DNA of 32,000 nucleotides, taken from an uncultured Nitrososphaerota archaeon. Its GTDB lineage: Archaea > Korarchaeota > Korarchaeia > Korarchaeales > Korarchaeaceae. The notes under the pieces were generated by a model, which saw only the letters and a list, made by a program, of their open reading frames with translations, had not been told where the DNA came from and did not search any database. Positions 4,230-21,666 of the stretch are shown piece by piece (positions within the stretch are counted from its first letter, which is position 1; each line of letters opens with the position of its first letter). Location of the stretch: NCBI GenBank assembly GCA_964480775.1, contig CAYZRF010000002.1, positions 60,001 through 92,000 on the forward strand, given 5' to 3'. The translations under genes were made by a program, and so were the position numbers.

Positions 4230-5002
4230 TTATTCATCCTTTTTCCAAAGAGCAGGATATAAATTCCTATCCATGATTACTCTTATGGGTTCAGCCACAG
4301 TCCCCCTATCCATCTCAATGAGTTCTTCTGAACTCACTAAGCTCCTAGCTAAAGCAACAAGTTCTCCCTTAAGAGTAAAAATTCCAACGGAACAATCTTT
4401 TCTCATCTCCTTAGAGAAGGCGCAGATTCCTGGAGCCTTAACACTTGCACCATGTGCAACTGACGCCACTGCTGTGTCTTTTATGATAACTTTAGGTAGA
4501 AGTTGTGCTACTATCGTCTCAAGGGGGATTATTTCATCCCTAAGATAGGCATCATTACCCGTATTTTCCCATAGGATCACGGCTCTTTCCAATTCTTGAA
4601 GAGTAATACTGCTAGCTTCTGTCAGAGGACCAGCCCTAATACGTCTGAGTTCTCTCATACTTGCCCCGCATCCCAAAAATTCTCCAATATCATGAAATAA
4701 TTTTCTTATGTAAGTGCCAGCCTCTACAGAGACTTTGAGCAGAACATACCTCCCATGCCTTTCAATCAGATTTATTTCGTAAATTCTTCTTGTTCTAAGC
4801 CTTCTCTTTACTGTGGCTTTAATTGGAGGTCTTTGAAAGATCAAACCAGTAAATTCTTTCAGTGCAAGAAGTAATGAATCGTCAGAAACTTCCCCATGCA
4901 GGTAGAGAACACCAACATACTCCTTTCCAGCTTTTGTCAGTAGTTTTGCTATCCTTGTGGCTCTTCCTAATAAAATGGGCAACACTCCGCTTACCTTGGG
5001 AT
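4230..5002 (-). CDS. cbf5: tRNA/rRNA pseudouridine synthase Cbf5, exon 2 (TruB catalytic core plus PUA domain)
   Basis: After splicing it continues (G)AU CCC AAG GUA... = D-PKVSGVLPILLGRATRIAKLL.... The track ORF 4230-4985 carries the rest of the TruB core and the C-terminal PUA-like region. The frame is continuous from 5002. Confidence 0.88.
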
Positions 5003-5031
5003 CTCCCTGAGCCTTCCTTAAGGAAGGCCCA
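5003..5031 (-). other. 29-nt bulge-helix-bulge (hBHBh') pre-mRNA intron inside cbf5
   Basis: Intron RNA is UGGGCCUUCCUUAAGGAAGGCUCAGGGAG. Outer helix UGGGA(5042-5038)/UCCCA(5001-4997). Central 4-bp helix CCCU(5037-5034)/AGGG(5008-5005). 3-nt bulges AGU(5033-5031) and AGA(5004-5002). Inner 9-bp helix with a UUAA loop. Excision restores the frame and the GTLDP motif. Confidence 0.85.
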
Positions 5032-5233
5032 CTAGGGTCCCACTATGCCCTATTTTACCAGAAAACCTCAAAATTTTCCTTATCTTTTGAGTTACCGCAT
5101 GAGAAGTAGGTCCTTGGGGTTTATCTAAGTTTATAACCCCATGGTCAAGGTACAGGTCTATTGGCCTTTTCTCTGGATAGAAGCCATAAGGTCCCGGCTC
5201 ACAATCTTGTTTTACAACAAGTTCCTCCTCCAT
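5032..5233 (-). CDS. cbf5: Pseudouridine synthase Cbf5, exon 1
   Basis: MEEELVVKQD...VINLDKPQGPTSHAVTQKIRKILRFSGKIGHSGTL(D). The last exon nucleotide (G, 5032) is the first base of the Asp codon. An SD-like GGAGAAAGTGAT lies upstream of the ATG. Confidence 0.88.
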
Positions 5234-16304: not shown

Positions 16305-17066
16305 TTGAGTCCAAATCAAGAAGATGAGGCTATAGCCGGTTTTCAAAGGCGATTAATTAAGGAGGCTGTTGCTAAGAAAATAGCTGGAGATCTCCTTTTT
16401 TCACCCAACATTGGCCTGTCCATGAGGAAGTGGAGGGAGTATTTTGGGATTAAACAAAGCGACCTAGCTAGATTGTTAGGCGTTTCTGCAAGCGTAGTAT
16501 CAGACTATGAATCTGGGAGAAGGAGAAGCCCAGGATCATTGGTGATCAAGAGATTTATAATTTCTCTAATAGAAGAAGATGAAAAGAGAGGAGGAAAAGT
16601 CTTCAAAACTCTGGCTAAAATGGCGGGAATTCAACCTTTCTTGAATTCTGTTGTGGATATGAGAGAATTTCCAATTCCTGTTGATATAGAGCCGTTCGTC
16701 GAATTAATAGAAGGTACTTGGCTTTACAAACCGCCTAGGGAATTTAGCATTAATGGATACACCATAATCGATAGTTATGCCGCAATCAAAAATCTTAGTG
16801 GTAGTTCAGAGTTTATACTTCTCTTTGGTTCTTCAACAGAAAGAGCATTAATCTTTACAAAGGTATCAGAAGGAAAGAGCCCGTTAGTGGCTTTAAAAGT
16901 GTTTGACTTAAAACCCAACTTGGTAGTATTGCATGGGCTCGGACCCGATGAGGTTCACGATTTAGCCATTAAACTGGCGGAAATCATGGGAATACCTCTG
17001 GTAGTATCGGGCATTCCCGATATAACTGCCCTAGCTCAGAAACTTAGGGAATTCTCACCTCTCTAA
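16305..17066 (+). CDS. XRE-family helix-turn-helix regulator with an uncharacterized C-terminal domain of about 150 aa
   Basis: LSMRKWREYFGIKQSDLARLLGVSASVVSDYESGRRRSP is a classic HTH_3 motif. TTG start with SD GAGGTG 7 nt upstream. Confidence 0.8.
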   Translation: MSPNQEDEAIAGFQRRLIKEAVAKKIAGDLLFSPNIGLSMRKWREYFGIKQSDLARLLGVSASVVSDYESGRRRSPGSLVIKRFIISLIEEDEKRGGKVFKTLAKMAGIQPFLNSVVDMREFPIPVDIEPFVELIEGTWLYKPPREFSINGYTIIDSYAAIKNLSGSSEFILLFGSSTERALIFTKVSEGKSPLVALKVFDLKPNLVVLHGLGPDEVHDLAIKLAEIMGIPLVVSGIPDITALAQKLREFSPL

Positions 17067-17242
17067 ATTCGACAAAAGTCGAGTATATTTTAACCATAAA
17101 TGAAAAATTTAAATAGGATGGGACTCTGGAAGTAGAAATAATCTATCGGGCTTCTATTCCCTCGATTGTACTGATTTTTCGGACTACCGATGTCCACTGA
17201 TGTTTTGTAATAATAGTAGATAAGAGAATCAAAGGTGTTAGA

Positions 17243-17602
17243 ATGAAATTAAACGAAATGGAAAAGTGTAGAATGCTGGAAATAAGCAACAGAGCACTAG
17301 CTAATGGTACAAAAGGAAGGAGTGAAACATTTGTTAAAATATGTTATGAATTATCAGGAAATGAGATCTCTATTGTAGACACCTGCACTACAAAAAGTGA
17401 TGATTTATCTGTTTTGACAGAATGTGCTTCGGTTGATAAGATAGCTTCTAGAATAGTGTTTGCTACTTTGTTGTATTGGTATGGGGCAATAAGCTATTTA
17501 TCCAGCCACTTAACTGGCTGTCATTTCGATTTTGTTGATGTTAATGGGAGTGTTTTTAAATTAGATCCTCAAGCGGCAGGGGCGATTAATTATGAGACCT
17601 AA
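17243..17602 (+). CDS. Hypothetical Cys-containing protein, possibly co-transcribed with the mevalonate genes
   Basis: 119-aa ORF. SD-like AAGGTG lies 6 nt upstream of the ATG. Its stop overlaps the HMG-CoA synthase start by 11 nt. No recognisable motif. The second half is T-rich, unlike neighbouring genes. Confidence 0.35.
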   Translation: MKLNEMEKCRMLEISNRALANGTKGRSETFVKICYELSGNEISIVDTCTTKSDDLSVLTECASVDKIASRIVFATLLYWYGAISYLSSHLTGCHFDFVDVNGSVFKLDPQAAGAINYET

Positions 17603-18677
17603 TAGGTCCGTTGGGATAGTTGGATGGGGAGCTTATGTTCCTAAATATAGGGTAACATCAAAAGAGCTTGCTAGAGCTTGGGGAAAGGATTGGAAGAAAT
17701 ATGCCGCTAGTATACTAGTTGAGGAGAAAAGTGTTCCAGGAATCGACGAAGATACGTTCACAATAGCCTATGAGGCCGCCAAAAACGCCATTAGAAGATC
17801 AAGGGTATCTCCTAATGAAATCAAGGCTGTCTTTGTAGGTACGGAATCCAAACCATATGCTGTAAAGCCAACTGCGACAATGCTTGCAGAGGCGCTCATG
17901 ATAGGAGGAGAAGATAGACTTACTCTTGGTGCAGACTTTGAGTTTGCTTGTAAGGCTGGATCGGAGGCCATGCAGGCTGTTATTGGCCTGGTCGGCTCTA
18001 GAATGATAGATTATGGACTTGCTGTAGGAGCTGACACAGCACAAGGTGCTCCTGGCGATGCACTTGAATACACAGCATCTGCAGGGGGCGCGGCCTTTGT
18101 AATCGGTACAGAAGACAAATCTATTGCTAGAATCGTTGGTACTTGCTCCTATGTAACAGATACTCCAGACTTCTGGAGAAGACAGTTAGCCAAGTACCCT
18201 TCACATACCGCTGGCTTTACAGGGAAGCCAGCCTACTTTACTCACATAATAAATGCATCGAAAAAACTCATGGAAGAAATGGGTACAAATCCGAAGGATT
18301 ATGACTATGCAGTGTTCCATCAGCCCAATGGAAAGTTTCCACTCAAGGTAGCTAAGATGCTAGGATTCACCGAAGAACAAGTTAGACCTGGGCTAATTAC
18401 TCCCTTCATAGGAAATACTTATAGTGCTTCTTCCATGATAGGGCTTGCCGCCGTTTTGGACATAGCTAAGCCTGGAGAGACCATCCTAGTCACTTCCTTT
18501 GGTTCAGGCGCAGGAAGCGATTCCTTCCATATTGAAGTCTCCGATAGAATAGAAGAAGTTAGAAATTGCGTACCGAGAGTATTGGATTTCATTGAAAAGA
18601 AAGTCTACGTTGATTATGCGATCTATTCAAGAAATAGAAGGATGATAGTGATGCCTCCAGGCCTAGGGGACTACTGA
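17592..18677 (+). CDS. Hydroxymethylglutaryl-CoA synthase (archaeal type)
   Basis: VGIVGWGAYVPKYRV N-terminus. Catalytic Glu (GTESKPY), Cys (EFACKAGSEAM) and His (AVFHQPNGKF) are all present. Confidence 0.92.
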   Translation: MRPNRSVGIVGWGAYVPKYRVTSKELARAWGKDWKKYAASILVEEKSVPGIDEDTFTIAYEAAKNAIRRSRVSPNEIKAVFVGTESKPYAVKPTATMLAEALMIGGEDRLTLGADFEFACKAGSEAMQAVIGLVGSRMIDYGLAVGADTAQGAPGDALEYTASAGGAAFVIGTEDKSIARIVGTCSYVTDTPDFWRRQLAKYPSHTAGFTGKPAYFTHIINASKKLMEEMGTNPKDYDYAVFHQPNGKFPLKVAKMLGFTEEQVRPGLITPFIGNTYSASSMIGLAAVLDIAKPGETILVTSFGSGAGSDSFHIEVSDRIEEVRNCVPRVLDFIEKKVYVDYAIYSRNRRMIVMPPGLGDY

Positions 18678-18678
18678 G

Positions 18679-19845
18679 GTGGGTATATTGCAAAGACCAA
18701 TAATCGCTGGTGTCGGCTTTACGAATATAACTGCACATTGGAAGTTGGGTTTAAAGGACCTAGCATCAGAAGCGGCTTTAAAAGCACTTGATGATGCTGG
18801 AAACCCCGAAATAAACGCTATTGTAGTAGGAAACATGCTATCTGGAATCGTAAACGGTCAGCAGAACCTTGGTAGTTTAGTGGCAGAGAGCATAGGGCTA
18901 AGTGGAGTGCCAAGCGTTAAGGTTGAGGCAGCACATGCCTCTGGTGCTGCGGCGGTTATGTGGGCAAGTTTAGCCGTTTTATCTGGTCTTTTTGACTCGG
19001 TTCTTGTGGTAGGGGTAGAGAAAATGACTGATGTAACTGACAGCGAAGATGTTAATTCAGCATTGGCAACTTCTACAGATTACGACTACGAGGTTTTCTT
19101 TGGAGCAACTTTTTCAGCCTTAAATGCGATGATTATGCGTAACTATGCGAAAACACATAATTTGTCTCCAGAAGACTTCGGATACTTACCTATTTTAATG
19201 CATAAGAATGCCAGGGATATTTCTCATGCTCAACTAAGGTTTCCAATAAATATGGATGGATATCTTAGCTCCCCAGTCCTGTCGGATCCTTTAAAATTGT
19301 TTGACTGTGCTCCCGTAGGAGATGGAGCAGCAGCTTTAGTAATAAAGAAGCGTGCCGAGGTCAAAGACTCAAATAAACTTGTTGAAATAATTGGTTTCAG
19401 TTCGGCAACAGATACTGTTGCTATATATAGAAGAGAGGAACTTTCTCGCCTAAGGGCCGCAGAACTTGCAACAAGAAAAGCTTTATCCATGGCAGGAATT
19501 GAATCAAAGCATTTTGACATAGTTCAGATACACGACGATCCTAGTGTAATGGGGTATCTAACTCTTGAGGCCCTAGGAATCGTAGAAAGGGGCAAAGCTC
19601 ACAAATTCATAGCTTCAGGGGATGCTGATAGGTCAGGTGCCCTTCCAGTAAATCCAGAAGGAGGTTTAAAGGCAAGAGGCCACCCCGTAGGTGCTACCGG
19701 CGTTTATCAAATTGCAGAACTAGCTTTACAGCTATCAAATAGAGCTGGACCTTCCCAAATTAGTGATCCAGAAGTGGGCGTGGCAATAAATGTGGGCGGG
19801 ACGGGATCTAACGTCTTTGTTCATATTTTAAGGAGGATTGAGTAG
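18679..19845 (+). CDS. Thiolase-family protein (acetyl-CoA acetyltransferase homolog) with His at the nucleophile position
   Basis: Thiolase fold motifs VEAAHASGAAAV...VLVVGVEKMTD, LFDCAPVGDGAAALVI and GGLKARGHPVGATGV. The start could instead be the TTG at 18688 (SD GAGGTG 6 nt upstream). Confidence 0.88.
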   Translation: MGILQRPIIAGVGFTNITAHWKLGLKDLASEAALKALDDAGNPEINAIVVGNMLSGIVNGQQNLGSLVAESIGLSGVPSVKVEAAHASGAAAVMWASLAVLSGLFDSVLVVGVEKMTDVTDSEDVNSALATSTDYDYEVFFGATFSALNAMIMRNYAKTHNLSPEDFGYLPILMHKNARDISHAQLRFPINMDGYLSSPVLSDPLKLFDCAPVGDGAAALVIKKRAEVKDSNKLVEIIGFSSATDTVAIYRREELSRLRAAELATRKALSMAGIESKHFDIVQIHDDPSVMGYLTLEALGIVERGKAHKFIASGDADRSGALPVNPEGGLKARGHPVGATGVYQIAELALQLSNRAGPSQISDPEVGVAINVGGTGSNVFVHILRRIE

Positions 19846-19846
19846 G

Positions 19847-20254
19847 ATGTGGGCATATAGATTGAATATTCCTAGTCACTGGAGGCTTCTTCCCGAGAGA
19901 TATAGGCTTGTTGGCGGTTATTGTGAAAACTGTGGGTACAAAATGTTTCCAAGACAGAAAATATGCCCTAAATGTGGATCAGATAATATAAAGGCTATTG
20001 AGCTACCAAGAAAAGGCAAAGTTGTCACATATACAATAGTTCAAGCACCACCTCGAGGTTTTGAGTACTATACTCCCTATGTCTTAGCTATAATTGAACT
20101 TGAGGATGGAACAAAGGTCTTTGGTCAGCTAACAGACATAGATCCTTCTGAGATCCGAGAAGGTCTTGAAGTTGAAATGACTATTAGAAAAATAAGAGTT
20201 AGCGGAGAATCTGGAGCCATTGCTTACGCATATAAGTTCCGCCCTCTAGAATGA
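19847..20254 (+). CDS. DUF35 Zn-ribbon/OB-fold protein (partner of thiolase and HMG-CoA synthase)
   Basis: CENCGYKMFPRQKICPKCGS ribbon followed by an OB-fold. I prefer the ATG at 19847 (SD GGAGGA upstream) over the TTG at 19838 given in the track. Confidence 0.88.
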   Translation: MWAYRLNIPSHWRLLPERYRLVGGYCENCGYKMFPRQKICPKCGSDNIKAIELPRKGKVVTYTIVQAPPRGFEYYTPYVLAIIELEDGTKVFGQLTDIDPSEIREGLEVEMTIRKIRVSGESGAIAYAYKFRPLE

Positions 20255-20277
20255 GAAAACAAGACCTCCTTCCAAAC

Positions 20278-20287
20278 TTTTTTCTTT
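20278..20287 (+). terminator. Oligo-T tract (TTTTTTCTTT) after the mevalonate operon; could also act as a TATA-like element for gatD
   Basis: It lies 24 nt downstream of the DUF35 stop and about 27 nt upstream of the gatD ATG. The two roles cannot be separated from sequence alone. Confidence 0.4.
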
Positions 20288-20310
20288 ACAAGTAGTAATG
20301 CGGTAATGAT

Positions 20311-21666
20311 ATGCCATTATCTTACAAAGGTCATGCAAAGGAGCTTCTTCGATCTAAAGGTATCGAAGATTATGACTTAATTCATGTCATTCGTAAAGAT
20401 GGTGTTGAATTAGACGGTATACTAATACCTCGAGCCAAGCTAGAAGACGACAAACATATCGTATTAAAACTCAAGAACGGATATAATGTCGGAATCTCTG
20501 TAGAATCCATCTCAAAAATAGAGCTACTAGGTAAAAGGAGAGATATGATAGAAGGAGAGAGAAAAATTTCCATTAAGCTACCTGCAAAGCAACTACCCAG
20601 AGTACCCCTTATAGTTACTGGAGGAACCATAACATCAAAGGTCGACTATGCGACTGGAGCCGTTAAACCTTATGAAAGACCCGAAGAACTATTAGATTTG
20701 ATTCCAGAGATATCAGAAATAGCAAATCTTTCATATATTCCTCTTATGTCAATTTTTAGTGAGAATATGACCGCTCAACAATGGATAAAAATCGCAAAAG
20801 AAGTCGAAAAGGAAATAAACTCAGGATCAGAGGGAGTTATCATCGCTCACGGAACTGACACAATGCATTTTACCGCGGCAGCATTATCTTTCTTACTAGA
20901 GGGGCTATTCAAACCAGTCATCCTTGTAGGTGCTCAACGCTCGATAGATAGACCATCTACCGATGCAGTCCTAAACTTATTTTCAGCAGTTAAAATGGTC
21001 GTAGACGGTCCCATAGCTGAATCAATGATAGTAATGCATGGAAGCCCTTCCGATGATTATGCTTATGCGATAAGAGGAGTTAGGGCAAGAAAGATGCACA
21101 CTTCAAGAAGAGATGCATTCTTGAGCATTAACGAGCCACCCCTAGCGAAAATAACCCGAAAAAGTATTGAGATAATAAACAAGAGTTACAATAAGAAGCG
21201 CATGAATGGAGAAGTAAAAGCGACAGAAAAAATGCAAGATAGAGTCGCTTTAATATATTCTTGGCCAGGAATCTCCCCCGATTTCCTGGATTTTATTGTA
21301 GAAAAAAGATATGTTGGTCTGATTTTGGCTGGCACCGGACTTGGACATGTTCCAACAGCTCTTATTCCTAAGATAAGAGAGCTAACTAGAGATGGAATTC
21401 CCATCGTAATGACATCGCAGTGCCTTTTTGGGAGGACAAATTTGAATGTTTATGAAACCGGGCGTCTTTTACTTGATGCTGGAGTTATACCTGTAGGAGA
21501 TATGTTGCCCGAAGTAGCTCTAGTCAAACTGATGTATGTGATGGGCAAGACAAGTGACATGGAAGAGATAAGGAAGATGATGGGAGAAAACCTAAGAGGA
21601 GAAATTAGCAAGTTCTTGAGCATAACTGCTTTTCCACCAGGAGATGTTTCCAATGTTCGATTATAA
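20311..21666 (+). CDS. gatD: Glu-tRNA(Gln) amidotransferase subunit D
   Basis: Asparaginase-type motifs VTGGTITSKVDY and IAHGTDTM. Archaeal GatD N-terminal domain. Overlaps gatE. Confidence 0.93.
   Translation: MPLSYKGHAKELLRSKGIEDYDLIHVIRKDGVELDGILIPRAKLEDDKHIVLKLKNGYNVGISVESISKIELLGKRRDMIEGERKISIKLPAKQLPRVPLIVTGGTITSKVDYATGAVKPYERPEELLDLIPEISEIANLSYIPLMSIFSENMTAQQWIKIAKEVEKEINSGSEGVIIAHGTDTMHFTAAALSFLLEGLFKPVILVGAQRSIDRPSTDAVLNLFSAVKMVVDGPIAESMIVMHGSPSDDYAYAIRGVRARKMHTSRRDAFLSINEPPLAKITRKSIEIINKSYNKKRMNGEVKATEKMQDRVALIYSWPGISPDFLDFIVEKRYVGLILAGTGLGHVPTALIPKIRELTRDGIPIVMTSQCLFGRTNLNVYETGRLLLDAGVIPVGDMLPEVALVKLMYVMGKTSDMEEIRKMMGENLRGEISKFLSITAFPPGDVSNVRL

What the first reader, a model, noticed from the sequence alone, without database searches (positions are those of the whole stretch)
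18679..19845. Thiolase of the HMGCS-thiolase-DUF35 operon has His (CAT, 18934-18936) where the catalytic nucleophile Cys is expected
Thiolase-fold enzymes carry the acyl-accepting Cys at the start of a helix in the motif (V/R)VEAACASGxxAL...G.EKM. Here the same segment reads KVEAAHASGAAAVMWASLAVLSGLFDSVLVVGVEKMTD, with His at residue 86. CAT differs from TGT/TGC at two positions, so this is not a single-base error. The only Cys in the whole protein is in LFDCAPVGDG, and the GHPVGATG His motif is retained. The adjacent HMG-CoA synthase keeps its Glu/Cys/His triad. This protein may therefore be a non-canonical or scaffold subunit of the thiolase/HMGCS/DUF35 complex. Alternatively it may use different chemistry, as in thiolase-like, DUF35-associated aldolases that lack the Cys. 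Or a paralog elsewhere may supply acetoacetyl-CoA.
Basis: partly seen in the sequence, partly recalled or inferred. Interest (0 to 1): 0.6.

Follow-up and report, generated by a model that had tools for sequence, protein, structure and literature searches.

The report
Catalytically disarmed thiolase beside HMG-CoA synthase
In this korarchaeal genome, the thiolase that normally makes the first intermediate of membrane-lipid synthesis has lost its catalytic cysteine but is still kept intact, and the same loss has happened many times in other archaea and bacteria, so it probably survives as a structural partner of HMG-CoA synthase.

Summary
Codon 18934-18936 is CAT, giving His86. It sits on the nucleophile Cys of EAAC(A/G)SG in alignments to the solved archaeal thiolases 7YVY and 6ESQ/6ET9.

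It is not an error. A second assembly of the reads gives the same sequence. The essential HDxF motif is also altered, from HDAF to HDDP. Together that is five base changes in three catalytic codons.

The six closest relatives (77-84% identity, same locus) all keep Cys, HDAF and GHP. The orthologous thiolase in other Korarchaeia has Gly, or Asn with all three motifs gone. Every one of 120 sampled Methanomassiliicoccales/Thermoplasmata homologues lacks Cys, as does a large Chloroflexi clade.

In these loci the adjacent HMG-CoA synthase keeps its Glu/Cys/His/Asn tetrad. The Cys-less proteins I could test are under strong purifying selection (dN/dS 0.035-0.047; about 0.09 for the window-L007 pair).

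Best reading: a non-catalytic thiolase subunit retained for the HMGCS/thiolase/DUF35 complex, here caught at an early stage. Acetoacetyl-CoA would then come from elsewhere. That source could not be tested, because the rest of the genome is not available.

I found no paper describing this pattern.

The parts
17060..17242 (+). Conserved upstream region of the operon. It holds an inverted repeat TTCGACAAAAGTCGA (about 17069-17083), an A/T box AAAAATTTAAATA (about 17103-17115) and AAGGTG before the ATG at 17243.
   Evidence: Aligns at 76-79% identity with the region upstream of iorA in relatives L005 and L010. That this is the promoter or leader is inferred.
17243..17602 (+). 119-aa ORF that is an in-frame deletion remnant of iorA (N-terminal ~77 aa) joined to the last 21 aa of iorB. 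About 2.15 kb of iorAB is missing compared with relatives.
   Evidence: blastp to IorA residues 1-77 of L005 gives 36% identity, E 3e-7; the last 21 aa match the IorB C-terminus. Intact iorA-iorB lies here in L005/L008, L007, L010 and L087, and the 3' end of iorB is present in L009, whose contig begins there. No Pfam hit.
17592..18677 (+). HMG-CoA synthase, 361 aa, with an intact Glu85/Cys120/His243/Asn275 tetrad.
   Evidence: NCBIfam equivalogs NF003274 (559 bits, cut-off 244) and TIGR00748 (532, cut-off 353). Tetrad confirmed. dN/dS 0.02-0.03.
18679..19845 (+). Thiolase-fold protein, 388 aa (385 aa if it starts at TTG 18688). It is the orthologue of the acetoacetyl-CoA thiolase subunit of the thiolase/HMGCS/DUF35 complex but lacks the nucleophile.
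   Evidence: Pfam PF00108 and PF22691. PDB matches 7YVY and 6ESQ. AF2 model with Foldseek TM 0.95 to 6ET9_C. Syntenic with Cys-bearing orthologues.
18862..18864 (+). CAG, Gln62, where 102 Cys-bearing homologues have near-invariant Glu.
18934..18936 (+). CAT, His86, at the nucleophile Cys column. Relatives have TGT or TGC.
19072..19074 (+). TCT, Ser132, replacing near-invariant Ala. This column also changes in 18 of 31 Cys-less homologues.
19531..19542 (+). HDxF motif reading His285-Asp286-Asp287-Pro288 (CAC GAC GAT CCT). Relatives have HDAF (CAY GAY GCN TTY).
   Evidence: The essential role of the motif's His is taken from PMC12960953.
19681..19683 (+). CAC, His335 of the GHP motif, retained.
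19847..20254 (+). DUF35 protein (zinc ribbon plus OB fold), 135 aa from the ATG (MWAYRL...). CxxC...CxxC is retained.
   Evidence: Pfam PF12172 and PF01796. Alignment with orthologues.

Best explanation
The gene encodes the orthologue of the acetoacetyl-CoA thiolase subunit of the archaeal thiolase/HMG-CoA synthase/DUF35 complex. It has lost the residues needed for the acyl-enzyme (ping-pong) thiolase reaction: Cys86 to His, and HDAF to HDDP.

It is not a pseudogene. It is full length, is predicted to fold like the subunit in 6ET9, sits in the same tightly packed gene cluster, and is still under purifying selection.

The most likely role is structural. It would hold the complex together and provide its side of the CoA-binding chamber shared with HMG-CoA synthase, which remains fully catalytic. 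Acetoacetyl-CoA would then be supplied by another enzyme or pathway encoded elsewhere.

Shown: the substitutions, the orthology, the parallel losses in other lineages, the purifying selection and the intact HMGCS and DUF35.

Inferred: loss of thiolase activity, the scaffold or CoA-site role, and the external source of acetoacetyl-CoA.
For: (1) Column identity: His86 aligns to the nucleophile Cys of 7YVY and 6ESQ. The AF2 model matches 6ET9_C at TM 0.95.

(2) Not an error: an identical sequence comes from an independent Logan assembly. Five nucleotide differences from relatives fall in three catalytic codons: TGY to CAT, GCN to GAT, TTY to CCT.

(3) Excess change at conserved sites: the window protein deviates at 5 of 76 columns that are at least 97% conserved in 102 Cys-bearing homologues (E62Q, C86H, A132S, A287D, F288P). 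Its six closest relatives deviate at 0-1 each (Poisson P about 2e-4).

(4) Parallel evolution at the same locus: other Korarchaeia in HMGCS-thiolase-DUF35-GatD-GatE synteny carry Gly86 with HDYS/HDSS and mostly GNP. The Ca. Korarchaeum group carries Asn86 with (E/G/S)EYS and GDP. The six of these proteins counted (L002, L004, L013-L015) contain no cysteine at all.

(5) Generality: 31 of 85 aligned sequences (the window protein plus those from the fetched loci) lack Cys86. Every such locus with enough upstream flank has an HMGCS with an intact E-C-H-N tetrad upstream, and a DUF35 gene follows the thiolase in all of them. All 120 best Methanomassiliicoccales/Thermoplasmata homologues are Cys-less.

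(6) Same released columns: 86, 132, 145, 149, 287, 288, 335 and 337 vary in Cys-less proteins. About 25 other columns stay invariant, including G13, N52, G89, E114, K115, H175, D215, G216, K331, R333, A339, T340, Q344, E347 and Q351. Four of the window's five deviations fall on released columns.

(7) Purifying selection: Gly-clade thiolase pairs give dN/dS 0.035 and 0.047. Window-L007 gives 0.089, against 0.033-0.048 for Cys-Cys pairs. HMGCS gives 0.02-0.03 throughout.

(8) Literature: mutating the HDxF His abolishes HMG-CoA formation. HMGS alone is inactive and ACAT alone is insoluble, so the complex is obligatory (PMC12960953, citing Vogeli 2018).
Against: No biochemical data exist for any Cys-less member.

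I could not show that the genome has another source of acetoacetyl-CoA. No second thiolase lies in the 32-kb window, and the rest of the MAG is inaccessible.

A dead thiolase removes the thermodynamic rationale (channelling) proposed for the complex.

His285 and His335 are retained, and the new residues His86 and Asp287 are ionisable, so residual or altered chemistry is not excluded.

The window lineage also has longer dN branches than L007 in HMGCS, GatD and DUF35. Part of the apparent acceleration is therefore lineage-wide.

Which conserved residues contact CoA, HMGCS or DUF35 could not be mapped, because no coordinates were available.
Confidence: 0.65

Rival explanations
1. Neo-functionalised active site. 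His86, His285, Asp287 and His335 form a new catalytic or metal-binding constellation that makes acetoacetyl-CoA, or does something else, without an acyl-cysteine intermediate. One route would be acid/base Claisen chemistry. Another would be malonyl-CoA decarboxylation feeding the acetyl-Cys of HMGCS through the fused CoA site.
For: The two new side chains occupy the positions that hold the two catalytic Cys in SCP2-type thiolases: the nucleophile, and the third position of HDCF (6ESQ reads HDCF). Both are ionisable. His285 and His335 are kept. A Cys-less SCP2-thiolase-like protein (TbSLP) has weak malonyl-CoA decarboxylase activity (PMC12329534). Purifying selection persists.
Against: Other Cys-less lineages carry chemically unrelated residues (Gly, Asn, Ser, Glu, Asp) and usually also lose His335, and sometimes His285. 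That looks like decay of a catalytic site, not convergence on a new one. F288P is an unlikely gain. Only one genome has this combination, and no closer relative exists among the 90% clusters.
Confidence: 0.1
2. Ongoing decay. The thiolase gene is functionless and on its way to being lost, as part of local erosion of the locus. The apparent constraint is only a lag.
For: The adjacent iorAB genes have been deleted in this lineage. Thiolase dN/dS is about twice that of Cys-bearing pairs. The protein has 19 lineage-specific substitutions, against 1-14 in its relatives.
Against: dN/dS is 0.089, far below 1, over a divergence of dS about 1. There is no frameshift or stop, and the length is full. The model has pLDDT 95. 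Lineages that lost Cys long ago still keep the gene under dN/dS 0.035-0.047. HMGCS and DUF35, which depend on it in the solved complex, are intact.
Confidence: 0.1
3. Artefact or minor allele. The His codon comes from sequencing or assembly error, or from a rare variant in the population that happened to be binned.
For: The 90% cluster has a single member sequence, on record from NCBI and Logan; only the Logan contig could be retrieved. Both assemblies probably derive from the same read set.
Against: Two assemblers give the identical 3648 bp. The codon differs at two positions. Two neighbouring codons of a second catalytic motif differ at three more positions. The nearest relative is at dS about 1, so there has been ample time for real substitutions.
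Confidence: 0.04
4. Thiolase activity is retained through a different nucleophile, either His86 itself or the single Cys210.
For: C210 lies in the conserved LFDCAPxxDG segment and is invariant in the Cys-less Methanomassiliicoccales clade.
Against: C210 is also present in 33 of 54 Cys86-bearing homologues and is Ser or Ala in the rest, so it is not a compensating residue. The Cys-less Korarchaeia proteins counted have no Cys at all. I know of no thiolase that uses an acyl-histidine (own knowledge).
Confidence: 0.04

Closest known systems
[quoted passage not shown] 2018)
   Same: Same three genes. The thiolase fold matches at TM 0.95 and 38% identity. The HMGCS has the E-C-H-N tetrad and the DUF35 has a Cys4 zinc ribbon. 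The GHP His and the His-Asp of HDxF are present.
   Different: The nucleophile Cys85 equivalent is His. HDCF/HDAF reads HDDP. The thiolase half-reaction, and hence channelling of acetoacetyl-CoA, is predicted to be absent.
Thiolase PFC_04095 of Pyrococcus furiosus (PDB 7YVY)
   Same: Closest solved sequence (E 3e-101, gap-free around the motifs).
   Different: 7YVY has EAACASG and HDAF.
Bacterial HMGS/ACAT/DUF35 complexes with one disabled subunit: PhlABC, MucABC and P. fluorescens PfACAT/HMGS-DUF35 (PMC12960953)
   Same: The conserved tripartite architecture is kept while one of the two thiolase-fold subunits has lost its canonical catalytic residues. The complex is still required.
   Different: In those complexes the HMGS-like subunit is disabled (no E-C-H-N) and the ACAT keeps its Cys. 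Here it is the reverse: HMGCS is intact and the ACAT is disabled.
Cys-less thiolase-like proteins: T. brucei SLP (5AB4-7), S. tokodaii ST0096 (4YZO), and the Ltp2/Sal aldolases (6OK1, 9MYR)
   Same: SCP2-thiolase-type fold without the nucleophile Cys. Some are associated with DUF35.
   Different: They are much more distant (21-29% identity). The aldolases use Tyr in YDxF/YDCY and a hydratase-fused DUF35. None is paired with a canonical HMGCS.
Ketosynthase/chain-length-factor heterodimers of type II polyketide synthases (own knowledge)
   Same: A thiolase-superfamily partner whose active-site Cys is replaced is retained as an obligatory structural or auxiliary subunit.
   Different: Different subfamily. 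There the Cys is replaced by Gln, which has a defined decarboxylase role. The partnership is heterodimeric, not a DUF35-bridged complex.

Membership tests
Archaeal acetoacetyl-CoA thiolase subunit of the thiolase/HMGCS/DUF35 complex | Thiolase fold (PF00108 N-domain plus PF22691 C-domain) | tested here: met
   Pfam E 4.5e-16 and 5e-36. AF2 pLDDT 95.3 and TM 0.95 to 6ET9_C.
Archaeal acetoacetyl-CoA thiolase subunit of the thiolase/HMGCS/DUF35 complex | Nucleophilic Cys in the EAAC(A/G)SG (CxS) motif | tested here: not met
   His86 (CAT 18934-18936) sits at that column.
Archaeal acetoacetyl-CoA thiolase subunit of the thiolase/HMGCS/DUF35 complex | HDxF motif (the His is essential; H284A abolishes HMG-CoA formation, PMC12960953) | tested here: inconclusive
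   His285-Asp286 are kept, but the motif reads HDDP. The Phe is invariant in the Cys-bearing relatives listed and at least 97% conserved among all 102.
Archaeal acetoacetyl-CoA thiolase subunit of the thiolase/HMGCS/DUF35 complex | GHP motif His | tested here: met
   GHPVGATG, His335.
Archaeal acetoacetyl-CoA thiolase subunit of the thiolase/HMGCS/DUF35 complex | Gene order HMGCS-thiolase-DUF35 and orthology with Cys-bearing members | tested here: met
   Same locus (HTH...HMGCS-thiolase-DUF35-GatD-GatE-PolB) as L005, L007-L010 and L087.
Archaeal acetoacetyl-CoA thiolase subunit of the thiolase/HMGCS/DUF35 complex | Curated NCBIfam score cut-offs | tested here: not met
   NF004720 scores 402.8 against a cut-off of 420. 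Equivalog NF053570 scores 331.5 against 600.
Archaeal acetoacetyl-CoA thiolase subunit of the thiolase/HMGCS/DUF35 complex | Acetyl-CoA condensation or acetoacetyl-CoA thiolysis activity | not testable with these tools
   Needs an enzyme assay.
Ltp2/Sal DUF35-associated retro-aldolases | Catalytic Tyr in the YDHF/YDCY motif | tested here: not met
   The equivalent residue is His285.
Ltp2/Sal DUF35-associated retro-aldolases | DUF35 supplied by a MaoC-type hydratase (ChsH2/Shy) in a steroid side-chain context | tested here: not met
   DUF35 is a free-standing 135-aa protein. The neighbours are HMGCS and GatD/E.
PhlC/MucB Friedel-Crafts acyltransferase complexes | ACAT-like subunit keeps the catalytic Cys, and the HMGS-like subunit lacks E-C-H-N | tested here: not met
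   The opposite pattern is seen: no Cys in the ACAT, and an intact tetrad in the HMGCS.
Cys-less operonic thiolase-like proteins (unnamed group seen here in Korarchaeia, Methanomassiliicoccales/Thermoplasmata and Chloroflexi) | Nucleophile absent, HMGCS (E-C-H-N) and DUF35 adjacent, and purifying selection retained | tested here: met
   The window shares four of the recurrently released columns (86, 132, 287, 288). It still keeps F145, N149, H335 and V337, so it is at an early stage.

The most novel reading that the evidence does not exclude
The Cys-less thiolase-like subunits, including this His86 form, are not inert. They enable a cysteine-independent first step of the mevalonate pathway inside the fused CoA chamber. 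One possibility is decarboxylative condensation of malonyl-CoA with the acetyl-cysteine of HMG-CoA synthase. If so, whole archaeal orders would make acetoacetyl-CoA by a route that has not been described.
Probability: 0.08. Interest if true: 0.85.

Novelty: new variant of a known kind. Interest (0 to 1): 0.62.

Why it matters
The thiolase/HMGCS/DUF35 complex is currently presented as the near-universal archaeal solution to the unfavourable first step of isoprenoid lipid synthesis. In that view the thiolase hands acetoacetyl-CoA directly to HMGCS.

If the thiolase subunit is catalytically dead here, that picture is incomplete. The same would apply in Ca. Korarchaeum, in all sampled Methanomassiliicoccales/Thermoplasmata and in many Chloroflexi. 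These organisms must obtain acetoacetyl-CoA another way, and the thiolase fold is kept for a non-catalytic reason.

The window adds a rare early snapshot. Only the nucleophile and the HDxF tail are gone, while close relatives are still intact. That makes reversion experiments (H86C, D287A, P288F) straightforward.

There is also a practical point. These proteins are routinely annotated as acetyl-CoA C-acetyltransferase, which will mislead metabolic reconstructions.

Tried and rejected
- **Sequencing or assembly error.** Rejected on the grounds of two assemblies and five base changes in three codons.
- **Misaligned column.** Rejected: the alignments to 7YVY and 6ESQ are gap-free around the motif, and the fold superposes.
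- **Aldolase (Ltp2/Sal) reading.** Rejected: no Tyr in the YDxF position and the wrong gene context.
- **C210 as a relocated nucleophile.** Rejected as a general explanation.
- **Second thiolase nearby.** None found in the window or within about 8 kb in the related loci, except L034.
- **Finding the rest of the genome.** The GTDB scan does not hold this genome; the best hit is 84%. The look-up of encoding contigs returned only a 3.6-kb Logan contig.
- **L011/L012 thiolase as a stand-alone paralogue.** I tested whether this iorAB-linked Cys-bearing thiolase co-occurs with Gly-type operons. The metagenome scan gave only L091, which is identical to L012. It comes from the same metagenome as a Gly-type contig but has a different G+C content, so the result is inconclusive.
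- **Vogeli et al. 2018.** The paper could not be read because it is not held.
- **Literature.** Five searches found no description of Cys-less operonic thiolases.
- **Relative-rate test on dN.** Only weakly informative, because the window lineage is also faster than L007 in the control genes.
Full report
**Observation.** The ORF at 18679-19845 (+) lies between an HMG-CoA synthase gene (17592-18677) and a DUF35 gene (19847-20254). Bases 18934-18936 are CAT, codon 86. phmmer against all PDB sequences aligns the protein end to end with the Pyrococcus furiosus thiolase 7YVY (E 3e-101). It also aligns with the Methanothermococcus thermolithotrophicus thiolase of the thiolase/HMGCS complex, 6ESQ/6ET9 (E 1e-77). 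In both alignments KVEAAHASG is paired, without gaps, with (K/R)(I/V)EAACASG. An AlphaFold2 model built on 48 homologues has mean pLDDT 95.3, and its best structural match is chain C of 6ET9 (TM 0.95, rmsd 1.5 A).

**Is it real?** A Logan assembly of run SRR15988952 yields a 3648-bp contig that is an exact substring of the window (17371-21018) and encodes the same protein. The close relatives use TGT or TGC, so CAT needs two substitutions. A second catalytic motif is also changed: every Cys-bearing relative reads I-H-D-A-F-S (CAY GAY GCN TTY), whereas the window reads I-H-D-D-P-S (CAC GAC GAT CCT), three more substitutions. The HDxF motif is one of three signature motifs of archaeal ACATs, and mutating its His abolishes HMG-CoA synthesis by the archaeal complex (PMC12960953). 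Across 76 alignment columns that are at least 97% conserved in 102 Cys-bearing homologues, the window protein deviates at five (E62Q, C86H, A132S, A287D, F288P). Its six closest relatives deviate at none or one (Poisson P about 2e-4). Error is not a credible explanation.

**What the relatives show.** The organism is a member of the Korarchaeia. The nearest named hits are 'Candidatus Korarchaeota archaeon' and isolate 'Kor4', and GTDB-derived titles say Thermoproteota. Its genome is not among the GTDB representatives. The nearest loci (L007 84%, L005/L008 81%, L009 79%, L010 77% protein identity) share the gene order HTH regulator, iorA, iorB, HMGCS, thiolase, DUF35, GatD, GatE, PolB, as far as each contig extends (L009 begins within iorB). 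All carry Cys, HDAF and GHP. A more distant korarchaeal locus (L087) has the same order plus HMG-CoA reductase, also with Cys.

Other Korarchaeia in exactly the same HMGCS-thiolase-DUF35-GatD-GatE-PolB position have lost the residue:
- One clade has Gly86 with HDYS or HDSS and mostly GNP.
- The Ca. Korarchaeum group, including a 1.63-Mb contig and NZ13-K, has Asn86, (E/G/S)E in place of HD, and GDP.
- The six such proteins counted (L002, L004, L013-L015) contain no cysteine at all.

**The pattern outside Korarchaeia.** One search aligned 85 thiolase sequences: the window protein plus those from the fetched loci (mostly the 80 GTDB loci). Of these, 31 lack Cys86, carrying Gly, Glu, Ser, Asn, Asp or His. 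They include Thermoplasmata, Methanomassiliicoccales, a Bathyarchaeota MAG, a Njordarchaeota MAG, a Nitrososphaerales MAG whose nearest relatives have Cys, and a large Chloroflexi clade. Every Cys-less locus with enough upstream flank has an HMGCS with Glu/Cys/His/Asn immediately upstream, and a DUF35 gene follows the thiolase in all of them. Many Cys-bearing homologues are not next to HMGCS. One Anaerolineaceae contig (L034) carries HMGCS, a Gly-type thiolase, DUF35 and a Cys-type thiolase in a row. A profile search seeded with the Thermoplasmata/Methanomassiliicoccales sequences returned 120 proteins, all Cys-less (117 Gly, 2 Asn, 1 Ser). Some sit on 2.4-2.6-Mb contigs.

**Are the Cys-less proteins functional?** Pairs within the korarchaeal Gly clade give thiolase dN/dS of 0.035 (L002-L088, dS 1.1) and 0.047 (L013-L014). 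These values match those of the neighbouring HMGCS, DUF35 and GatD genes. In the 31 Cys-less sequences, a small set of columns that is near-invariant in Cys-bearing proteins becomes variable: 86, 132, 145, 149, 287, 288, 335 and 337, and less often 53 and 285. About 25 other conserved columns remain invariant, including G13, N52, G89, E114, K115, H175, D215, G216, K331, R333, A339, T340, Q344, E347 and Q351. This is the signature of a protein that has lost a catalytic site but kept a selected fold and surface.

For the window, thiolase dN/dS against its nearest relative L007 is 0.089. That is about twice the 0.033-0.048 of Cys-Cys pairs but far below neutrality. HMGCS stays at 0.026. Four of the window's five deviations fall on the recurrently released columns, while F145, N149, His285, His335 and V337 are still ancestral. 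The window therefore looks like an early stage of the same trajectory.

One caution applies. The window lineage also has longer dN branches than L007 in the control genes, so only part of the acceleration is specific to the thiolase.

**Mechanism proposed.** In the solved complex, the thiolase and HMGCS clefts form one fused CoA-binding chamber and DUF35 bridges the two enzymes. Expressed alone, HMGS is inactive and ACAT is insoluble (PMC12960953, citing Vogeli et al. 2018, which I could not read directly). I infer that HMGCS depends on the thiolase-fold partner irrespective of the partner's catalysis. This would explain why the gene survives under constraint after the nucleophile is lost. Acetoacetyl-CoA would come from a separate thiolase or another pathway. 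This last step is inference. No second thiolase lies in the window, and I could not reach the rest of the genome.

**Rivals.**
- *New chemistry using His86, His285, Asp287 and His335.* This is not excluded. Positions 86 and 287 are where SCP2-type thiolases place their two catalytic Cys. However, the heterogeneity of replacements in other lineages, together with the frequent loss of His335, argues for decay rather than redesign.
- *Plain pseudogenisation.* This is contradicted by the low dN/dS and the intact reading frame.
- *Ltp2/Sal-type aldolase.* This fails on the Tyr of YDxF and on gene context.
- *C210 as a relocated nucleophile.* This residue is common in Cys86-bearing proteins and absent in the Cys-less Korarchaeia counted.

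**Comparison with what is known.** The closest described analogy is the inverse case in bacteria. In PhlABC, MucABC and a Pseudomonas fluorescens ACAT/HMGS-DUF35 complex, the HMGS-like subunit has lost its tetrad while the ACAT keeps its Cys (PMC12960953). I found no paper describing complexes with an intact HMGCS and a Cys-less thiolase. The searchable library lacks most subscription journals, so this is absence of evidence only. NCBIfam places the window protein just below the 'thiolase domain-containing protein' cut-off (402.8 against 420), and its HMGCS well above the archaeal equivalog cut-offs.

**Verdict.** The finding is real and not an isolated oddity. It is a young member of a widespread, apparently undescribed variant of the archaeal thiolase/HMGCS/DUF35 system in which the thiolase subunit is no longer a thiolase. 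The structural-partner explanation is the best supported, at about 0.65. The missing piece is the source of acetoacetyl-CoA.

Noticed in passing
window 17243-17602 (+), with 17060-17242 upstream: The iorA-iorB genes (2-oxoacid:ferredoxin oxidoreductase type), which directly precede HMGCS in all close relatives, are deleted here (~2.15 kb). What remains is an in-frame 119-aa remnant: a diverged iorA N-terminus plus the last 21 aa of iorB. The upstream region, with an inverted repeat and an A/T box, is conserved.
   Followed up: yes
window 4230-5233 (-), insert at 5004-5032: The cbf5/TruB pseudouridine synthase gene is interrupted, exactly between GHSGTL and DPKVSG (the catalytic Asp motif), by 29 nt forming a perfect hairpin (GCCTTCC-TTAA-GGAAGGC). 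The length is not a multiple of 3. It resembles the bulge-helix-bulge mRNA intron known in crenarchaeal cbf5. Yokobori et al. 2009 (PMC2738675) list no cbf5 intron for Ca. Korarchaeum cryptofilum.
   Followed up: partly
L034 1574-5514: An Anaerolineaceae contig carries HMGCS, a Gly-type (Cys-less) thiolase, DUF35 and a Cys-type thiolase in one row. This directly shows a disabled and an intact copy side by side.
   Followed up: partly
L011 5675-9128 and L012 5657-9128 (L091 is identical to L012): In two Thermoproteota/Korarchaeia-like MAGs a Cys-bearing thiolase (about 60% identical to the window's) directly follows iorA-iorB, with no HMGCS or DUF35 within 8 kb. It may be a stand-alone catalytic thiolase. 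Whether the same genomes also carry a Cys-less operon is unknown.
   Followed up: partly
L035 1759-2892: A Nitrososphaerales MAG has Ser (AGC) at the nucleophile column and GNP, while its nearest relatives (L046, L053) have Cys and GHP. This is another apparently recent, independent loss inside an HMGCS-thiolase-DUF35 operon.
   Followed up: no
L002, L004, L013-L015 (thiolase genes); P0241-P0254: The Gly/Asn-type korarchaeal thiolase-like proteins counted (L002, L004, L013-L015) contain no cysteine at all. In the Ca. Korarchaeum group all three catalytic motifs are gone (Asn86; EE, GE or SE for HD; GDP), yet the proteins stay full length and are 76-84% identical to P0042.
   Followed up: partly
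P0121-P0240; alignment A1 column 210: In the Cys-less Methanomassiliicoccales/Thermoplasmata clade, the Cys equivalent to the window's C210 (FDCAP) is present in 120 of 121 sequences. Its role is unknown.
   Followed up: no
L087 6596-7804: In a more distant korarchaeal lineage, HMG-CoA reductase sits between DUF35 and GatD in the same operon. It is absent from that position in the window and its close relatives.
   Followed up: no
window-clade genes HMGCS, DUF35, GatD: The window lineage has longer non-synonymous branches than its nearest relative L007 in all genes compared. This suggests generally faster protein evolution in this lineage.
   Followed up: partly
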